DNA from: Candidatus Woesebacteria bacterium RIFCSPHIGHO2_01_FULL_39_32
GTDB taxonomy: Bacteria > Patescibacteriota > Microgenomatia > UBA8517
Assembly: GCA_001792345.1 (NCBI GenBank)
Contig: MGGJ01000009.1
Location: forward strand, 3,711-67,710
Reading direction: 5' to 3'
DNA: 64,000 bases
How positions within the stretch are numbered: the stretch's first letter is position 1; each line of letters opens with the position of its first letter. Shown piece after piece: positions 32,355 to 42,817 of the stretch. The position numbers were made by a program, and so were the translations under genes. A model generated the notes under the pieces. That model saw only the letters and a program-made list of their open reading frames with translations, made no database searches and had not been told where the DNA came from.

Positions 32355-32771
32355 CTAGGATTTTATATATTTCTTAATTTTTTCAACAACCTGCTCAGGA
32401 GTCTGCATTGCTTTTACCAAATATTCTTTTACACCAAGTTTCATTGCTTTTTGCCGCTCCGTATCCTCGGCAAGATTCGTTAGTGCAACAACCGGTAAAT
32501 TTTTTCCCTTAGTACTTTCCCGGAATTTTTCCAAAAAATCAGTACCCGACATTCTCGGAAGCATGATATCCAAAAGGATTATGTCAATTGGTTCAGCGAG
32601 AGCCATTGTAAGCGCCTCTTCCCCATCCTTTGCATTAAGAACCTTAAATCCTTCAAAGGAGAACTTTTCAGTATACATTTTCAAAAGGACCGGATCATCC
32701 TCAACTATTAAAATTACCTGTTCAGGCTTTTGTGCTGACTCATTATTAGTTGGTTCCGGATGATCTGCCAT
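32355..32771 (-). CDS. Response regulator, receiver domain only (CheY-like)
   Basis: Acidic pocket (VEDD), phospho-acceptor Asp (ILLDIMLP), conserved T/S (ALTNL) and K (LVK). No output domain. Confidence 0.8.
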   Translation of the reverse strand: MADHPEPTNNESAQKPEQVILIVEDDPVLLKMYTEKFSFEGFKVLNAKDGEEALTMALAEPIDIILLDIMLPRMSGTDFLEKFRESTKGKNLPVVALTNLAEDTERQKAMKLGVKEYLVKAMQTPEQVVEKIKKYIKS

Positions 32772-32963: not shown

Positions 32964-33584
32964 TTGAGGGTTATGAAAAAACTTTGTTTCTTAATCTTTA
33001 TTCTCGCAGCTACCCTACTTTTTTTTGCAAAAACCTTAAAGGCATCTGAGGGAGTAATTGAAATTGTAAGCACAACCGATGACGTGTATCGCTGTTGGGC
33101 TTCCTCGGTAAGAATGCAAAATCAGGAATTTAGAATTCCTTTTACTTGTAGAAACCTAATCTATCCAGCAAATGATAATGTATTTAACTATGTAGCGTGG
33201 GCAACACCTCAAAACGGTGGCGAAACAATTAAATTGGGAGCTTTAGGTCTGGGAAGAGGAGAATTCAGGACCAAAAAAGCATTTGCCAATCTTTTCGTCA
33301 CGACAGAAAGGTCAAAAGATGTAAAAACACCTCAAGGGACTGTAGTTATGCGAGGCAACGTTGAATCCATAGAACCATTTTTCCAAGAAGGACCTACAGC
33401 TACTCCCACGCCTAGCACCGAAGGTGGAGAAGAAGAGTTGCAGCAAGAAGAACCAGAGCAGCCAAGCGAACTTACCACAAGACAAAAATTCCTGCTCGCA
33501 TTAAGACGAGCTGGTGTTGCAGCCTTGATTGCACTTGTGGCACTTGTTGGTTTAATCTTCGTGGTAACCAGGTCAAGAGGATGA
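32964..33584 (+). CDS. Hypothetical secreted protein with a C-terminal transmembrane anchor
   Basis: Signal peptide, an acidic E-rich linker and a C-terminal hydrophobic helix. Confidence 0.45.
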   Translation: MRVMKKLCFLIFILAATLLFFAKTLKASEGVIEIVSTTDDVYRCWASSVRMQNQEFRIPFTCRNLIYPANDNVFNYVAWATPQNGGETIKLGALGLGRGEFRTKKAFANLFVTTERSKDVKTPQGTVVMRGNVESIEPFFQEGPTATPTPSTEGGEEELQQEEPEQPSELTTRQKFLLALRRAGVAALIALVALVGLIFVVTRSRG

Positions 33585-35174
33585 CTCGGTAAGGGGTAGT
33601 TCAAACCAAAACGTACTTCCCTTACCCACCACAGAATCTACGTCAATTTTTCCATTGAATTTCTCAACTAAAAGTTTACAAATATATAACCCCAATCCTG
33701 TTCCTGTGGTTTTGCCAACATTTGTTTCTATCCTATGAAACTTTTGAAAAAGCTTTACCTTCTCATCTTCGGAAATCCCCGGACCAGAATCTATTACTTC
33801 GACGCGGACAGATTTTGGATTTGGTTGCCTTAGCTTCACTTTAACAAAACCCGTATCTGTATACTTAACGGCATTACTGATTAAGTTACCTATCACTTCT
33901 TGTACACGATCCGGGTCAACGCTAATTTTATCTTTAATTTCTGGCGGGATTTCAAGATCATACTTTAAACCTTTCCTTTCCAATTCGGGTGCAAATTGAT
34001 TAAAAACCGCTCTCACTACGCGCGATAAATTTTCTTCCTCAACCTGGTAAACCATTCTCCCCTCCTCAATTCTACTCACGTTAAGCATGTTATTAACCAG
34101 ACGAACCAGTCTATCAGTTATATTATTGGCATCTGCCAAAAATCCTCGAGCTTTTTCAGGGATATCTCCAGTATCACCCTCCATGACCATAGAAACATAT
34201 CCCTTGATAGCCGTCATCGGAGCCCTAAGTTCATGCGCCGCCATGGATATGAATTCATCCTTTTGTGCATCAAGTTGTTTTAGTCTCTGATTCAATTCAG
34301 CAAGCTTTTCTTTTTGTTCAATTTCTTTTGTTATACTTTTGATAAGGAGAATACTAAAAATCAATACAATTACAAAAATTGTCATATCAACAATCAATTC
34401 TCCTATAGATACATAAGTAAATATTTTAGCCAGAAGAATTAACAAAATTACTCCAACAAATAATTGTGTAGCAAGCAGTTTTATATTTAATAATTTGTGC
34501 TTAACTATGGCGTAAGCTATAAATCCAATCATTATTAAAGTAAAAATGGGTCCGAAAAATGTTAGCTTAATAGATTTGAAAACTACAACAGCAATAAAAT
34601 TGGTTAAGGTCATTAAAGAAAACGACACAAAAAGCCCAATAATAACAATTCCCAGCTGCCGTTTTAGTAATCCTTCACTTTTTCTATATCTGCGAAAAAG
34701 AATAATAAATCCCCATGTTAAAAAACCAATGAGGTTAACCGCATACAACACAATTGCAGGACCCGGGAAAAGTTTAAATCCCCCATCATTATCAGGCGAA
34801 TTCACTAGACCAGAGAATATATAAGGGGTAAAACTTAAAAGGGCTATTGCTATATTCAAAGTCAGCATAATAATAAGTAAGTTTCTTTTAACATTAATTT
34901 TCTCCCCTGGAATAGTCGACGATAGAAGAAATATTAAAGGACCAAGGGGAGTAGTAATAAACATTACTGACCTTACCCAAAGTAGGCGTATTGATTCGTT
35001 ACGAGGTAACAACGCAAGGTAATTAAAAACTGCCCAAAACATTAGAAGTGTTGCCAATATAGAGAGAAGTTTGTTACTCGCTGACTTGGGATTGTTTCGG
35101 TAAACAACAAATGCGATAAAAAGATCGGCAAAGATAGTAAAAATAACAGCTAATAAACCTAGGGCATCTAACAT
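33573..35174 (-). CDS. Sensor histidine kinase with a multi-transmembrane N-terminal domain
   Basis: H-box (SMAAHELRAPMTAI). HATPase N, G1 and G2 boxes (NAVKYT; IDSGPGI; GTGLGL). Confidence 0.8.
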   Translation of the reverse strand: MLDALGLLAVIFTIFADLFIAFVVYRNNPKSASNKLLSILATLLMFWAVFNYLALLPRNESIRLLWVRSVMFITTPLGPLIFLLSSTIPGEKINVKRNLLIIMLTLNIAIALLSFTPYIFSGLVNSPDNDGGFKLFPGPAIVLYAVNLIGFLTWGFIILFRRYRKSEGLLKRQLGIVIIGLFVSFSLMTLTNFIAVVVFKSIKLTFFGPIFTLIMIGFIAYAIVKHKLLNIKLLATQLFVGVILLILLAKIFTYVSIGELIVDMTIFVIVLIFSILLIKSITKEIEQKEKLAELNQRLKQLDAQKDEFISMAAHELRAPMTAIKGYVSMVMEGDTGDIPEKARGFLADANNITDRLVRLVNNMLNVSRIEEGRMVYQVEEENLSRVVRAVFNQFAPELERKGLKYDLEIPPEIKDKISVDPDRVQEVIGNLISNAVKYTDTGFVKVKLRQPNPKSVRVEVIDSGPGISEDEKVKLFQKFHRIETNVGKTTGTGLGLYICKLLVEKFNGKIDVDSVVGKGSTFWFELPLTESSS

Positions 35175-35246: not shown

Positions 35247-36665
35247 TTAAATTGAAAAATCTTCTTGTCGTTCCTGAGGTATTGAAATATTAAACAATTG
35301 TGTCATTATTTTACGAAGAATCTCTGATTTTCCACGATCAAATTCATCGACTAATGTTTTTGGAGCTTCGTCGCTATGAAAATTTTTACCACTCATATCC
35401 CTTCCACCTAGCTGAAACAAAACTAATTTGGCAGCAATTGCAGCAGATTCCCTCGAAGCTATTGGTGTTTGAGAGAAGTAAGGCACCAATCCAAGACGAG
35501 TAAAAAGAAGTTGAAGCCTATGGTCGTCAGGTAAATCTCTATTCACCATCATATAAATTGCACGAAGTTGATTTAAGGAAAATTCTAATCCTTGTTGCAT
35601 TGTTTCTTTTTCAACTCGGGTTAAGTTCTGATTAAACCAATTACCATTCCCTGGAATCTCTATTCCAACAAAAGGATCGCTTCCAGCGTCGGCAATCCAT
35701 AGAAGCGGTGTTGATGGTAAAAACTTCTCGGAATAGGTCCGTGTATTTACTTTTCCTACAGCGCTATCTATAACTTCAAATAGAAATTCTAAACCCTCCG
35801 ACATGTCTTCAATCTTAGTATCGAATTCGCCTTCTGTTTCTTGTTTGGAAAAAATAACGTTTCCCGGAACACCCAAGTATTTACCATAAGGGTTTCTTCC
35901 TTGAAGTGTCCGCATTAAAAGGAGTGCTTTAGGCAAGCCAGAATTTCTAAAATCCCCCATACCTCCTGGAGCTCTTGCGATATCTTGTGGATCAAGCTTC
36001 CCTTTGTCAAAAGCAGTTATATCCTCAGCTCCTAAACATGCTAATAAATCCAGTTCCGTCGCAACAACACTCGCTCCGATGCTTCCTATTTTTGTAACCC
36101 GCAATGTGTCAATGTAAGAAAAAGGTATAAGACCAAGAAGTCTAGATTTATTCAATATCCTATTTTCTTCAGGACCAATATACATAAATAGCTCTTTCTT
36201 TAAAGGATCCCAAATAAATCTTGAGTTTTTCTCTACCAATTCAGGATCTTCTCTGTAAGGCTGCGTGGCTGAAGCAAGAATAGCCAAATCATCCGCAATA
36301 GGACCTATCTCTACTACCGAGCGTATTTCTTCCTGTGATATTCCTTGAGTTTGGGCTGTTATTTGTTGTGTTACTAAATCAAGTATTCCTTCGCGTGTCC
36401 TAGGAACTCTTTCATACATTGCAGCGTGTTTGAAAAATTGCTCTACTCCAGTAAGATAGGGTCTCAAAATATCATCTCGGGAATTTACAGCTTCTTTCGC
36501 TAATTGGACTAACTCATTTCTTCCTTCAGAAGTCTGATGATCAACAACTCTTAGTTGCCATTTGAGTGGATCCAAATCTGGTTCACCAAGAAACTTATCA
36601 ACGGCTAGTTCCTGAATATCTTGTACACTTTTTAATATCCAACCTTCTTGGTCAATCCGAGACAT
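35247..36665 (-). CDS. Hypothetical protein (472 aa) of unknown function
   Basis: ORF. The only faint motif is IGSIGASVVATELDLLACLGAEDITAFD, which might reflect a degenerate Rossmann/E1-like nucleotide-binding segment. Speculative. Confidence 0.5.
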   Translation of the reverse strand: MSRIDQEGWILKSVQDIQELAVDKFLGEPDLDPLKWQLRVVDHQTSEGRNELVQLAKEAVNSRDDILRPYLTGVEQFFKHAAMYERVPRTREGILDLVTQQITAQTQGISQEEIRSVVEIGPIADDLAILASATQPYREDPELVEKNSRFIWDPLKKELFMYIGPEENRILNKSRLLGLIPFSYIDTLRVTKIGSIGASVVATELDLLACLGAEDITAFDKGKLDPQDIARAPGGMGDFRNSGLPKALLLMRTLQGRNPYGKYLGVPGNVIFSKQETEGEFDTKIEDMSEGLEFLFEVIDSAVGKVNTRTYSEKFLPSTPLLWIADAGSDPFVGIEIPGNGNWFNQNLTRVEKETMQQGLEFSLNQLRAIYMMVNRDLPDDHRLQLLFTRLGLVPYFSQTPIASRESAAIAAKLVLFQLGGRDMSGKNFHSDEAPKTLVDEFDRGKSEILRKIMTQLFNISIPQERQEDFSI

Positions 36666-36703
36666 AACTGATTATAGGACAGTATAATTAATTCCTGCAT
36701 AAT

Positions 36704-37723
36704 TTAAGTAGCAATCGATTCTAATGAGGGAAGCTCAATTTGCCTTCTGGTGAAGTATTCTAACGATTTTTGTAAGAACCCATTAGTATCGAAAGCCCCA
36801 ACTATTATTTGTCCCTGATAACCACCGATTTCTGAAGGACCATAATGGTATCTTAAAATTGTTTCCAGAATTTGAGGTGTGGGAATAACGCCATCTCTGT
36901 CTGCTACTACCCGTGCCCCGAAATGTCTCCTAACAAAATCTGCTGTATCTCTCCTGTGAATATCAAAAACTGCTAGCTCTGGAGTCACTAATCTTCCATT
37001 ATTTCCGCTTGCTAAAACATAAGCCAAAGGCATTGCAGCTATAACATCGGCTGGAGTTGAACGTCTATCTACTCCCAGCGTTGTGGTGATATCAGCTCTT
37101 TGTGCCCAATATCTTGTTATACATACTGCATTTTCTTCTGGAACTTCAAGTACAGTTGTTTCAAAATCTCTATTTATATCAACTAGATTAACTGCCTGGA
37201 AGGTGGGAAGGGTGGAATTATTATCAAAAGCCGAAATGTTTACTAACCTATCCCCACGACCGTGAACAATACGAGTCCCTGCTATAGGCTTTATTCCCTC
37301 TTGAGTTTCGTATTCAACAATGATTAGTAAATCATCAGACGAAAAATCTCCCATAAAAAGCCTGAGAAGTTCCTGTTCCGATTCTAAATCTCCTATCGGA
37401 AAACCTTTACCCATAGTATCTTGATGTACGTAATTCCATGCTAGCTCTTGTATCCATGCTGCTGTTTTTCGAGTCGAATATGCTCCTATTCTCCCCGCTG
37501 TCATTTTCAAACTTCCTAAATTTAAATAAAAAGTTGGTTCTTGCTCTCTTTCGGTGAAATTGTAATAAGGATTCGCTATTGAAAATCCGTCGGATAAATC
37601 AATATGGTAACCTAATAATCCCTCGAGCTCATTATCGGAGTAGAAGGGAGGAGCCGAAAATCCGGCAAACTCTTGTCTTGGTACTGCTTGTCTTAACTCG
37701 GTCTTACGGTCAGTTATCATCAC
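36704..37723 (-). CDS. Hypothetical protein (339 aa) of unknown function
   Basis: ORF separated from the upstream ORF by 38 nt. No motifs recognised. Confidence 0.5.
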   Translation of the reverse strand: MMITDRKTELRQAVPRQEFAGFSAPPFYSDNELEGLLGYHIDLSDGFSIANPYYNFTEREQEPTFYLNLGSLKMTAGRIGAYSTRKTAAWIQELAWNYVHQDTMGKGFPIGDLESEQELLRLFMGDFSSDDLLIIVEYETQEGIKPIAGTRIVHGRGDRLVNISAFDNNSTLPTFQAVNLVDINRDFETTVLEVPEENAVCITRYWAQRADITTTLGVDRRSTPADVIAAMPLAYVLASGNNGRLVTPELAVFDIHRRDTADFVRRHFGARVVADRDGVIPTPQILETILRYHYGPSEIGGYQGQIIVGAFDTNGFLQKSLEYFTRRQIELPSLESIAT

Positions 37724-37912: not shown

Positions 37913-38221
37913 TTGGCTGAAATGAGTCCCGAAGCTAGACTTCCGACGCCAGAAGAAGTTCAAAAATTTAAATCCAGTGTCAATTTCAAGAATATCATGG
38001 ATTTAGATCCACACGACCAAACGTTATACCAGCTAATGGTGGAGTCAGAATTCGGTATTGTAACAATACCCTTTCAAGGACAAATCTGTGGACTCCAAGC
38101 ATCCCAGGAGAGAGATCGCCTAACCCTATCATTTCTTGAAGCGGGGATAGCAACTAGCACCTTTATAATTACAGACGTAGAAAGGGATATTGTACTTTTA
38201 GTTGTAGGGTTAAACCGCTAA
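37913..38221 (+). CDS. Small hypothetical protein
   Basis: ORF of 102 aa. Confidence 0.35.
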   Translation: MAEMSPEARLPTPEEVQKFKSSVNFKNIMDLDPHDQTLYQLMVESEFGIVTIPFQGQICGLQASQERDRLTLSFLEAGIATSTFIITDVERDIVLLVVGLNR

Positions 38222-38288
38222 TTATCTATCCACAGTAATTGGGTCGTCGATTTCACCAGTTGCGGAAGCGTGGAGGGTGAAGTTAAGT

Positions 38289-42285: not shown

Positions 42286-42349
42286 GCCTTTTATTTATTA
42301 AAAAGCTGCTTTTCTAAAAATACAATACCTAAATTTTTCCCAAACCTAT

Positions 42350-42817
42350 TTATCTATCCACCGTGATTGGATCATCTATCTCACCTGTTGCTGAAGTGTG
42401 GAGGCGGCCATTGGCGTCAACATAAATTGTGTAACCGGTATTGCCTGCAGGATCAGTCGCTTGCGGATCTGAGGGCATTTCTACCAGGTAAACAGGGACT
42501 ATCTCGTCTCCAACGTCTCCTGCACCTGCAAGATTAAAACAACCTACATCTATCCCAACGCAGGTGGCAGCTCCCGGAAAGTTACTAGTATCAGGATCTC
42601 CATCCGTATCTGGTAAATCGCCACTGTGTTCAGAAGCATATTGCATAACCGCGGCCAAAATTGCGATGAGATCGGTTTCTCTCTCGGCGTCGCGAGCCTT
42701 TGCGAGCTGTCTACCTGGATTTACGGCTACCACAATAATCGTCGACATTACCCCCATTATTGCAATTACTACCAAAAGTTCAATCAACGTAAAGCCTCTT
42801 TTAATTTTTTCCATCAT
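42350..42817 (-). CDS. Type IV pilin (prepilin with class III signal)
   Basis: KRGFTLIELLVVIAIMGV: a prepilin peptidase cleavage/methylation site, then a hydrophobic helix. Confidence 0.8.
   Translation of the reverse strand: MMEKIKRGFTLIELLVVIAIMGVMSTIIVVAVNPGRQLAKARDAERETDLIAILAAVMQYASEHSGDLPDTDGDPDTSNFPGAATCVGIDVGCFNLAGAGDVGDEIVPVYLVEMPSDPQATDPAGNTGYTIYVDANGRLHTSATGEIDDPITVDR

What the first reader, a model, noticed from the sequence alone, without database searches (positions are those of the whole stretch)
35247..37723. Two-gene operon of large uncharacterised proteins next to the histidine kinase
Two co-directional ORFs (472 aa and 339 aa, 38-nt gap) lie immediately downstream of the sensor kinase gene. 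Neither shows a recognisable catalytic motif. The only hint is a glycine-rich IGSIGASVV...LGAEDITAFD segment in the 472-aa protein. It faintly resembles a degenerate E1/ThiF-like Rossmann motif. Their placement beside a kinase and receiver-only regulator pair suggests a regulated accessory function.
Basis: inference. Interest (0 to 1): 0.55.

Follow-up and report, generated by a model that had tools for sequence, protein, structure and literature searches.

The report
Acyltransferase–ThiF enzyme pair wired to kinase
The two "uncharacterised" genes encode an acyltransferase-fold enzyme and an ATP-using ThiF-like enzyme that always travel together, sometimes fused, with a seven-helix membrane sensor kinase in tiny CPR bacteria, so they probably make a small acyl-amino-acid-type molecule tied to signalling, a circuit not described before.

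Summary
Both ORFs are real, on the minus strand, 38 nt apart. They lie upstream of the kinase gene, not downstream.

The 472-aa protein (T) is a divergent but apparently intact E1/ThiF-like adenylating enzyme. Its ATP/Mg residues are invariant in 24 relatives, and it has no conserved cysteine.

The 339-aa protein (G) has a GNAT acyltransferase fold. Its family has 92 representatives in 1.84 billion proteins, and no Pfam or NCBIfam model detects it.

G and T are adjacent in every CPR locus examined. They are fused, G then T, in about ten family representatives. In nine loci a conserved HisKA_7TM histidine kinase follows directly, and all but one also carry a receiver-only regulator nearby.

The closest known system is the oxazolone pathway OxzAB/TyzACB/TrzAS: an N-acyltransferase plus a ThiF-like cyclase. 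Its flavin oxidase is absent here, and the kinase coupling is new.

Best reading: G N-acylates an amino acid, T adenylates or cyclises the product, and the product is linked to the 7TM kinase as a candidate signal. The chemistry and the sensing step are inferred, not shown.

Verdict: new variant of a known kind, of moderate to high interest.

The parts
36704..37723 (-). G: 339-aa (probably 338-aa, ATG at 37720) GNAT-fold acyltransferase-like protein, founding member of a family with no curated model
   Evidence: ORF. AlphaFold model pTM 0.81. Foldseek PDB hits are all GNAT acyltransferases, including AHL synthases and FeeM. The family has 92 representatives. No Pfam or NCBIfam GNAT model hits any of 90 members. 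Nearly invariant residues are Y53, Y98, R204, D254, H293 and Y294; E196 is kept in 71 of 89 members.
35247..36665 (-). T: 472-aa divergent ThiF/E1-like adenylating enzyme with an N-terminal helical domain, a Rossmann core and a C-terminal helical domain
   Evidence: Model pTM 0.85. Foldseek gives 229 PDB hits at E<=1e-3, all E1/ThiF, with the best being AclA, MccB, ThiF and PaaA. The profile aligns to the Atg7 ATP-binding motifs. Ten of 11 family members hit the NCBIfam Rv1355c/TrzS model. G197, S199, D220, K246, E297, D300, K305, D326 and Q399 are invariant in 24 sequences, and there is no conserved Cys.
36006..36089 (-).
   Evidence: translation. It aligns to the G-x-G-x-x-G loop and the ribose-binding Asp of Atg7. 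G197, S199 and D220 are invariant.
33573..35174 (-). HisKA_7TM sensor histidine kinase, a conserved third gene of the module
   Evidence: Pfam HisKA_7TM, HisKA and HATPase_c. Orthologues lie directly downstream of G/T in nine loci and are 38-61% identical, with a highly conserved 7TM domain.
32355..32771 (-). Receiver-only (CheY-like) response regulator, fourth member of the module
   Evidence: Pfam Response_reg only. Orthologues at 41-54% identity occur in L001, L004, L018 and L022, with an intact phospho-acceptor pocket.
33494..33511 (-). Terminator-like hairpin about 60 nt after the kinase stop codon; none lies between G, T and the kinase
   Evidence: This is a consensus scan only, not proof of termination.

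Best explanation
G, T, the 7TM kinase and the receiver-only regulator form one conserved module of CPR/Patescibacteria.

**Shown**
- G has a GNAT acyltransferase fold.
- T is an E1/ThiF-fold enzyme with a complete ATP/Mg2+ site and no catalytic cysteine.
- G and T are adjacent, tightly spaced or overlapping, and sometimes fused in the order G then T.
- A specific orthologous HisKA_7TM kinase follows them.

**Inferred, by analogy with OxzA/OxzB, TyzA/TyzB and TrzA/TrzS**
- G transfers an acyl group, probably from an acyl thioester, onto the amino group of an amino acid or similar amine-carboxylate.
- T then adenylates the carboxylate of that N-acyl product. The adenylate collapses by intramolecular attack to a cyclised product, or is captured by another nucleophile. 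The cyclised product would be a saturated 5(4H)-oxazolone, because no oxidase is present.

**Further inferred, from the obligatory kinase linkage**
- The hydrophobic product is the ligand of, or is otherwise functionally coupled to, the 7TM receptor kinase.
- The kinase signals through the single-domain regulator by protein-protein contacts.
- This would be a synthase-receptor circuit of the kind seen in kinase-based quorum sensing.
For: - **Fold of G:** one search gives only GNAT acyltransferases, including LasI (TM-score 0.62 normalised to the target), EsaI, TofI, BjaI, MesI and FeeM. PMC10404671 reports FeeM and BjaI as the nearest solved structures to TyzA.
- **Fold and site of T:**
- **Subfamily of T:** the NCBIfam Rv1355c (TrzS) model is hit by 10 of 11 members, best E 6.4e-17, more than any other E1/ThiF model.
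- **Gene order:** acyltransferase immediately upstream of ThiF on the same strand, as in oxzAB and trzAS.
- **Fusions:** eight fusion proteins hit the T profile at 1e-81 to 1e-144, plus two more divergent ones.
- **Module conservation:** G and T, a HisKA_7TM kinase and (in all but L020) a receiver-only regulator occur in the window, L001-3, L004, L010, L018, L017, L019, L020 and L022. These include members only about 22-28% identical to the window's G.
- **Co-inherited partners:** the kinases are orthologous with a conserved 7TM domain, and the regulators are orthologous.
- **One transcription unit:** no terminator-like site lies between G, T and the kinase.
- **Chemistry without an oxidase:** the ThiF domain of TrzS alone yields the cyclised saturated oxazolone, and oxazolones have been proposed as signals.
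Against: - No chemistry was tested.
- G has no sequence-level link to OxzA/TyzA or to any GNAT model. Its best Foldseek E-values are to protein N-terminal acetyltransferases (NatD), so the acceptor could be a protein or peptide.
- T scores only 17 bits against the Rv1355c model (cut-off 476). In the fusion proteins the ThiF and Rv1355c models score about equally.
- T's best structural matches (AclA, MccB, PaaA) are enzymes that modify peptides.
- The flavin oxidase that defines the known oxazolone pathways is absent from all ten loci.
- A saturated oxazolone is hydrolytically labile.
- Gene adjacency does not show that the kinase senses the product. The kinase could instead control the enzymes, or the enzymes could modify the kinase or regulator.
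- CPR bacteria often lack fatty-acid and CoA synthesis, so the acyl donor is unclear (my own knowledge).
Confidence: 0.45

Rival explanations
1. Peptide or protein modification. T adenylates the C-terminal carboxylate of a peptide or protein, as MccB, PaaA and E1 enzymes do. G acylates an amino group of the same substrate. The substrate could be a RiPP precursor encoded elsewhere, a pilin, or the kinase or regulator itself.
For: T's top structural matches are peptide-modifying ThiF-like enzymes: AclA in complex with substrate, MccB and PaaA. G's best Foldseek E-values are to the N-terminal protein acetyltransferase NatD and a lasso-peptide acetyltransferase. In four loci the module sits beside pilin or type IV pilus genes. 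T has a 145-residue N-terminal domain that could bind a macromolecule.
Against: No small ORF is conserved on the module strand in ten loci; the only conserved small ORFs are antisense shadows of the coding genes. There is no conserved cysteine, ubiquitin-like partner, E2 or JAB gene. Pilus genes are absent from L017, L019, L020 and L022, so that link is lineage-specific. T's N-terminal domain is all-helical and does not look like the beta-rich MccB peptide clamp (the comparison rests on my own knowledge).
Confidence: 0.2
2. Membrane lipid or envelope function. G and T make an N-acyl amino acid lipid or a derivative that becomes part of the membrane. The 7TM kinase monitors membrane state rather than a diffusible signal.
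For: The chemistry is the same as in the best explanation. N-acyl oxazolones of M. tuberculosis are described as lipids and found mainly inside cells. The kinase sensor is entirely membrane-embedded.
Against: A strict one-to-one linkage of a biosynthetic pair with one kinase and one CheY-like regulator is more typical of signal circuits than of bulk lipid synthesis. No transporter, flippase or other lipid gene is conserved in the module.
Confidence: 0.15
3. The pair is a regulatory accessory with no small-molecule product. For example, T could be an ATP-binding scaffold or sensor that modulates the kinase or regulator, and G a ligand-binding pseudo-enzyme.
For: The Gly-rich loop is atypical (G-A-S-V-A-A rather than G-x-G-G-x-G). 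The window protein has Asp where most relatives have the Asn of the S-N-x-x-R motif. Pfam ThiF does not detect the window protein. G lacks the canonical GNAT Q/R-x-x-G-x-G/A motif by eye.
Against: D220, K246 and D300 are invariant and R231 is kept in 21 of 24 sequences, including the window protein. G keeps a set of nearly invariant polar residues across 90 members that are only about 20-40% identical. That pattern points to catalysis rather than decay.
Confidence: 0.08
4. Nucleoside or tRNA modification of the TcdA type. TcdA is a ThiF-like enzyme that cyclises t6A to ct6A, and G would supply or alter the carbamoyl or acyl amino acid moiety.
For: TcdA performs the same kind of cyclodehydration on an N-carbamoyl amino acid. 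The T profile weakly matches the ThiF-like C-terminal part of a t6A-synthase fusion protein in the PDB (8ide, E 0.012). Two fusion members hit the TcdA model at about 1e-3.
Against: TcdA is among the weakest of the E1 models matched. TcdA does not appear in the top 50 structural hits. The obligatory link to a membrane kinase has no rationale for a tRNA enzyme.
Confidence: 0.04

Closest known systems
Oxazolone synthetase pathways: OxzA/OxzB (Pseudoalteromonas rubra), TyzA/TyzB/TyzC (Rv2336, Rv2338c, Rv2337c) and TrzA/TrzS (Rv1356c/Rv1355c) of Mycobacterium tuberculosis
   Same: An acyltransferase with a GNAT/AHL-synthase-like fold is encoded immediately upstream of a ThiF-like ATP-dependent enzyme on the same strand. 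The ThiF-like part is most often matched by the Rv1355c model. It has no catalytic cysteine. The physiological role is unknown, and signalling has been proposed.
   Different: No flavin-dependent oxidase (nitroreductase superfamily) is fused or adjacent in any of ten loci. G is 339 aa and has no detectable sequence similarity to known acyltransferase models. T has extra N- and C-terminal helical domains and a G-A-S loop. G and T are fused to each other, rather than ThiF to an oxidase. The module is hard-wired to a HisKA_7TM kinase and a receiver. The hosts are CPR/Patescibacteria rather than Proteobacteria or Actinomycetota.
Kinase-based autoinducer circuits with the synthase next to a polytopic receptor kinase: CqsA/CqsS, LuxM/LuxN, PhcB/PhcS/PhcR, RpfF/RpfC (my own knowledge)
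   Same: Biosynthetic gene(s) for a hydrophobic small molecule are co-located, and probably co-transcribed, with a multi-pass membrane histidine kinase and a response regulator.
   Different: The enzymes are unrelated to CqsA, LuxM, PhcB and RpfF. The sensor is a HisKA_7TM domain with no known ligand. The regulator has no output domain. No signal has been demonstrated.
Peptide-modifying ThiF-like enzymes MccB and PaaA, and AclA (PDB 9egb)
   Same: These are the best structural matches of T. They adenylate a carboxylate without an E1-type thioester.
   Different: No conserved precursor peptide gene was found. T's N-terminal domain is helical. AclA's function could not be retrieved from the paper library.
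TcdA/CsdL (tRNA ct6A synthase)
   Same: It is a ThiF-like enzyme that cyclodehydrates an N-carbamoyl amino acid to an oxazolone or hydantoin ring.
   Different: It acts on tRNA, stands alone, and gives only weak sequence matches here.

Membership tests
E1/ThiF-like adenylyltransferase superfamily (PF00899) | Rossmann-type E1 adenylation fold | tested here: met
   Foldseek gives 229 PDB hits at E<=1e-3, all E1/ThiF. TM-scores normalised to the target are 0.78-0.79 to AclA and 0.72 to ThiF 1zfn_D.
E1/ThiF-like adenylyltransferase superfamily (PF00899) | ATP/Mg2+ binding residues: Gly-rich loop, Asp after strand 2, Arg of S-N-x-x-R, Lys, and the Mg-binding Asp | tested here: met
   The profile aligns to the Atg7 motifs. 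G197, S199, D220, K246 and D300 are invariant, and R231 is kept in 21 of 24 sequences, including the window protein. The loop is the G-A-S-V-A-A variant, and the motif Asn is Asp in the window protein.
E1/ThiF-like adenylyltransferase superfamily (PF00899) | Detection by the Pfam ThiF model above the gathering score | tested here: inconclusive
   The window protein gets no Pfam hit even at E<=1. Six of ten homologues carry precomputed PF00899 hits. L016 scores 49.5 bits against a cut-off of 28.1. Eight fusion members hit ThiF.
Canonical E1 / MoeB / ThiF (protein-activating, sulfur-transfer) | Catalytic cysteine or CxxC zinc motifs, and a ubiquitin-like (ThiS/MoaD) partner | tested here: not met
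   No position has Cys in at least 50% of 24 sequences. No ThiS/MoaD-like or other conserved small ORF lies in the loci.
Oxazolone synthetase pathway (OxzAB / TyzACB / TrzAS) | An acyltransferase gene adjacent to, typically immediately upstream of, the ThiF-like gene | tested here: met
   The order G then T on one strand, with gaps from -59 to +38 nt or as a fusion, holds in all module loci. The arrangement in oxzAB and trzAS is described.
Oxazolone synthetase pathway (OxzAB / TyzACB / TrzAS) | Acyltransferase with the AHL-synthase/FeeM-like alpha/beta/alpha fold (TyzA, OxzA) | tested here: inconclusive
Oxazolone synthetase pathway (OxzAB / TyzACB / TrzAS) | ThiF domain belonging to the OxzB/TyzB/TrzS sequence cluster | tested here: not met
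   The window protein scores 17.4 bits against the NCBIfam Rv1355c equivalog model (cut-off 476). It is the most frequently matched model (10 of 11 members, best 6.4e-17), but scores are far below membership level. The SSN cluster cut-off in PMC12856293 is 1e-65.
Oxazolone synthetase pathway (OxzAB / TyzACB / TrzAS) | Flavin-dependent oxidase (nitroreductase superfamily) fused to or adjacent to the ThiF-like gene | tested here: not met
   No nitroreductase family appears among the Pfam annotations of any neighbour in ten module loci. The fusion proteins carry only the G and ThiF domains.
Oxazolone synthetase pathway (OxzAB / TyzACB / TrzAS) | ATP-dependent cyclisation of an N-acyl amino acid to an oxazolone | not testable with these tools
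   This needs enzyme assays or LC-MS.
GNAT acyl-CoA N-acyltransferase superfamily | GNAT fold (mixed beta-sheet with flanking helices) | tested here: met
   The 15 Foldseek PDB hits at E<=1e-3, and the weaker ones listed, are GNAT-fold acyltransferases at probability 1.00. The model has pTM 0.81.
GNAT acyl-CoA N-acyltransferase superfamily | Recognition by a curated GNAT-clan sequence model, and the canonical Q/R-x-x-G-x-G/A CoA-pyrophosphate motif after strand 4 | tested here: not met
   None of 90 members hits a general GNAT model; one has a marginal match to Rv0428c_C, a probable acetyltransferase C-terminal domain (E 0.0069). No such motif follows strand 199-207, and no Gly is conserved there. 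That the motif is typical of GNATs rests on my own knowledge.
Kinase-based quorum-sensing circuit (CqsA/CqsS type) | Synthase gene(s) co-located with a polytopic membrane histidine kinase and a response regulator | tested here: met
   Nine loci show this arrangement, with orthologous kinases and regulators.
Kinase-based quorum-sensing circuit (CqsA/CqsS type) | A released product is sensed by the kinase and changes its activity | not testable with these tools
   This needs biochemistry or genetics.
RiPP pathways with ThiF-like enzymes (MccB, PaaA) | A precursor peptide gene in the cluster | tested here: not met
   An all-against-all comparison of 1348 small ORFs from ten loci found conserved ones only antisense to the G, T and kinase genes.

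The most novel reading that the evidence does not exclude
G/T is a new two-enzyme autoinducer synthase, sometimes fused into one protein. Its product would be an acyl-amino-acid-derived molecule such as a saturated oxazolone, or a lactone or lactam formed through the adenylate. The dedicated HisKA_7TM receptor kinase would sense that product and signal through a CheY-like regulator. This would be the first cognate synthase-receptor signalling circuit described in CPR/Patescibacteria. It would also give oxazolone-type acyl amino acid derivatives, whose role is an acknowledged open question, and the ligand-less HisKA_7TM sensor domain a testable signal-receptor relationship.
Probability: 0.25. 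Interest if true: 0.85.

Novelty: new variant of a known kind. Interest (0 to 1): 0.62.

Why it matters
- **An open question becomes testable.** Acyltransferase plus ThiF-like pairs that make N-acyl oxazolones were discovered only in 2021-2025. Their physiological role is called "a major unresolved question", with signalling as one suggestion (PMC12856293).
- **A receptor candidate.** Here a remote variant of such a pair is genetically locked to one receptor kinase and one regulator across lineages that have diverged to about 22% identity. That offers a concrete ligand-receptor hypothesis.
- **A new enzyme family.** G is a GNAT-fold family that no curated model recognises.
- **A possible ligand for HisKA_7TM.** This widespread sensor domain has no known ligand.
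- **CPR signalling.** CPR bacteria are reduced, mostly uncultured organisms, often epibionts, whose signalling is almost unknown. In some lineages the module sits beside type IV pilus genes.

Tried and rejected
- **Direct family scans of the two window proteins.** Pfam, PADLOC and PHROGs gave nothing. NCBIfam gave only the weak Rv1355c hit for T. Neither protein is a known defence or phage protein.
- **Sequence search of the PDB.** The single sequences gave nothing meaningful. The 90-member G profile also gave nothing.
- **Widening the G family.** A word-indexed profile search added only one protein; the exhaustive search was needed.
- **Collection scans.** The species-representative genome scan returned only two loci, both already known. 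The metagenome scan returned four, and the only new one, L016, is a lone ThiF-like gene among housekeeping genes.
- **A hidden G domain in G-less loci.** The 657-aa sigma-54-activator-like protein upstream of T in L007 showed none (hhalign probability 0.1; broader HMM). The 395-aa neighbour of P0057 is not ThiF-like.
- **AclA (9egb).** Three literature searches failed to find what it does.
- **Prior descriptions.** Searches for the module in CPR bacteria or linked to HisKA_7TM found nothing relevant.
- **Readings rejected.** An E1/ubiquitin-like conjugation system is rejected because there is no Cys, Ubl, E2 or JAB. A RiPP cluster is rejected as the leading reading because no precursor is conserved.
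- **Nearby ORFs.** The 102-aa and 206-aa ORFs are not conserved in any other locus.
Full report
**Observation.** The window carries two co-directional ORFs on the minus strand. G runs 36704-37723 and is 339 aa from a GTG start. The identical database protein, P0012, has 338 aa, which matches the ATG at 37720 preceded by AGGTG. T runs 35247-36665 and is 472 aa. They are 38 nt apart. Continuing along the minus strand, 72 nt further on, is a 533-aa histidine kinase with HisKA_7TM, HisKA and HATPase_c domains (33573-35174). After an 801-nt interval comes a 138-aa receiver-only response regulator (32355-32771). The quoted glycine-rich segment is at 36006-36089. No terminator-like hairpin separates G, T and the kinase, and one lies about 60 nt past the kinase stop codon. 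This suggests a three-gene transcript. Source names attached to the identical proteins place the window in Candidatus Woesebacteria, a CPR/Patescibacteria lineage.

**What T is.** Pfam does not detect T, and NCBIfam gives one weak hit, to the Rv1355c family. Of its ten homologues (30-47% identity), six carry precomputed ThiF hits. The AlphaFold model built from that alignment is confident (pLDDT 85.8, pTM 0.85). Foldseek returns 229 solved structures at E<=1e-3, all E1/ThiF enzymes. The best are AclA (9egb, target-normalised TM-score 0.78-0.79), MccB, the SUMO/NEDD8/ISG15 E1s, ThiF and PaaA.

The family profile aligns to the ATP-binding motifs of Atg7. Across 24 relatives, including the ThiF halves of fusion proteins, G197, S199, D220, K246, E297, D300, K305, D326 and Q399 are invariant. 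R231 is kept in 21 of 24, including the window protein. No position has a conserved cysteine. T thus looks like a working carboxylate-adenylating enzyme that forms no E1-type thioester and has no zinc or sulfur-transfer site. The glycine loop reads G-A-S-V-A-A, a family signature rather than a sign of decay. At family level the most frequently matched NCBIfam model is Rv1355c (10 of 11 members, best 6.4e-17), ahead of ThiF (5 of 11, best 2.2e-7). In the fusion proteins the two models are about level.

**What G is.** No Pfam, NCBIfam, PADLOC, PHROG or PDB sequence match exists for G. An exhaustive profile search of 1.84 billion representative proteins finds only 92 relatives. None of 90 members matches a general GNAT model; one has a marginal hit to a probable acetyltransferase domain, Rv0428c_C. 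The 90-member profile hits no solved structure. The structure model (pLDDT 78.7, pTM 0.81) nevertheless matches GNAT acyltransferases only. The hits include NatD, PA3270, a lasso-peptide acetyltransferase, AAC(2')-Ia, the AHL synthases MesI, EsaI, TofI, LasI and BjaI, and the N-acyl amino acid synthase FeeM. About half of G aligns to them (query-normalised TM-score about 0.34, target-normalised 0.5-0.62), so G is a GNAT core with extensions. The GNAT subfamily is not resolved. The family keeps nearly invariant polar residues (Y53, Y98, R204, D254, H293, Y294), and E196 is kept in 71 of 89 members, although overall identity is only about 20-40%. That pattern suggests an active site.

**G and T work together.** G sits directly upstream of T in every CPR locus examined, with E values of 1e-65 to 1e-125 against the G profile and gaps from a 59-nt overlap to 38 nt. 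Among the 92 family representatives, eight proteins of 731-876 aa are G-then-T fusions that match the T profile at 1e-81 to 1e-144. Two more carry a more divergent ThiF-like half. The fusion order equals the gene order.

**The kinase and regulator belong to the module.** A HisKA_7TM kinase follows G/T directly in nine loci:
- the window;
- L001-3 (a second Woesebacteria genome);
- L004 (Patescibacteria UBA1449; its 670-aa protein is HisKA_7TM-GAF-HisKA);
- L010 and L018;
- L017 and L019 (fusions);
- L020 (a divergent fusion);
- L022 (G only about 22% identical to the window's).

Receiver-only regulators lie next to all of these except L010, where the contig ends, and L020. The nine kinases are orthologous at 38-61% identity, and their 7TM domain is as conserved as the catalytic core. 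The regulators of the window, L001, L004, L018 and L022 are 41-54% identical and keep the phospho-acceptor pocket. The one exception is P0057. There the G domain is fused to a cyclic-nucleotide-binding domain, no ThiF-like gene is present, and the next-but-one gene downstream is a Ser/Thr kinase. All module loci have 35-47% GC. Named members come from Woesebacteria, Pacebacteria and Patescibacteria. Type IV pilus genes flank the module in the window, L001, L004 and L010 but not elsewhere, so that link is lineage-specific.

**Comparison with known systems.** The only validated case of a ThiF-like enzyme acting on a small molecule is oxazolone synthesis (PMC12596934). OxzA, TyzA and TrzA N-acylate an aromatic amino acid from acyl-CoA. 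The ThiF-like TyzB, or the ThiF domain of OxzB and TrzS (TrzS is Rv1355c), then cyclises the product with ATP. A flavin-dependent oxidase of the nitroreductase superfamily, fused or adjacent, desaturates it. The closest solved structures to TyzA are reported to be FeeM and BjaI, and FeeM and BjaI are also among G's hits.

The window pair shares several features with that system: the gene order, the two folds, the lack of cysteine, and the Rv1355c model as the commonest match. It fails three membership criteria. Scores are far below the Rv1355c cut-off (17 against 476 bits). G has no sequence link to known acyltransferases. No oxidase is present in any of ten loci. In TrzS the ThiF domain alone yields the cyclised, saturated intermediate, so chemistry without an oxidase is plausible.

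**Mechanism proposed.**
- *Shown:* the folds, the intact adenylation site, the G-T coupling, and the linkage to the kinase and regulator.
- *Inferred:* G N-acylates an amino acid. T adenylates its carboxylate, and the adenylate cyclises to a saturated oxazolone or is captured by another nucleophile.
- *Further inferred:* the product is coupled to the 7TM kinase, most simply as its ligand. This follows the pattern of synthase-receptor pairs such as CqsA/CqsS, LuxM/LuxN, PhcB/PhcS and RpfF/RpfC (my own knowledge). The output would pass through a CheY-like regulator by protein contacts.

**Rivals.**
- *Peptide or protein modification.* This is favoured by T's best structural matches (AclA, MccB, PaaA) and by G's NatD hits. 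However, a search of 1348 small ORFs in ten loci found no conserved precursor on the module strand. There is also no Ubl, E2 or JAB gene.
- *Membrane-lipid role, non-catalytic accessory role, TcdA-like tRNA role.* All three remain possible at lower probability.

**Novelty and score.** I found no description of this module in the literature available here, and all database members are labelled hypothetical. It is a new variant of a known kind: an acyltransferase plus ThiF-like pair, without the oxidase, built on a new GNAT-fold family, and locked to a receptor kinase. The role of oxazolone-type acyl amino acid derivatives is an acknowledged open question, and HisKA_7TM has no known ligand, so the module offers a direct ligand-receptor test. 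The chemistry and the sensing step are untested. Interest: 0.62.

Noticed in passing
window 38218-38276 and 42346-42404; segment 38277-42345: A 59-nt copy (83% identical) of the 3' end of the pilin gene (42350-42817, minus) lies just upstream of G. The 4.1 kb between the copies carries a Phd/YefM-PIN toxin-antitoxin pair, a 175-aa gene and a 918-aa M23-peptidase protein. In related loci the pilin gene abuts G directly, so this looks like an insertion that left a pilin remnant.
   Followed up: partly
window 32964-33584 (+): A 206-aa ORF with hydrophobic N- and C-terminal segments lies between the kinase and the regulator on the opposite strand. It overlaps the kinase stop by 12 nt and contains the terminator-like hairpin. 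It is absent from all other module loci, where the regulator follows the kinase closely.
   Followed up: partly
window 37913-38221 (+): A 102-aa ORF runs divergently in the 520-nt spacer upstream of G. It has no family hit and no counterpart in other loci, so it may not be a gene.
   Followed up: partly
L006 821-3619; L009 98-1429; L007 6028-14677: High-GC relatives of T (58-67% GC) lack G. In L006 and L009, T sits next to a convergent PEP-utilising enzyme gene, and in L006 an FAD-linked oxidase (FAD_binding_4) lies directly upstream (L009's contig starts at T). In L007/L008, T starts at the last base of a 657-aa sigma-54-activator-like gene and precedes a receiver-STAS, kinase and receiver cluster, a second independent link between T and two-component signalling.
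   Followed up: partly
L021 4411-6441 (protein P0057): A 676-aa protein joins an N-terminal region, a cyclic-nucleotide-binding domain and the G-family domain. It has no ThiF-like neighbour, and the next-but-one gene downstream is a Ser/Thr kinase. The layout recalls the cAMP-regulated mycobacterial acetyltransferase Pat.
   Followed up: partly
L020 3800-7880: Next to the divergent G-T fusion (P0066), three ATP-grasp (RimK-like) genes (two on the opposite strand, one on the fusion's strand) and a 7TM_transglut gene form a cluster. This may be an additional peptide or amino-acid ligation activity near the module.
   Followed up: no
window 36704-37723: The mechanical ORF call starts G at GTG 37723 (339 aa). 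The database protein starts at the adjacent ATG 37720 (338 aa), preceded by an AGGTG Shine-Dalgarno-like sequence.
   Followed up: yes
PDB 9egb (AclA, Tenacibaculum discolor): The best structural match of T is a roughly 250-residue stand-alone ThiF-like protein crystallised with its substrate and released in August 2025. Its function could not be found in the paper library. Knowing its substrate would sharpen the choice between the small-molecule and peptide readings.
   Followed up: partly
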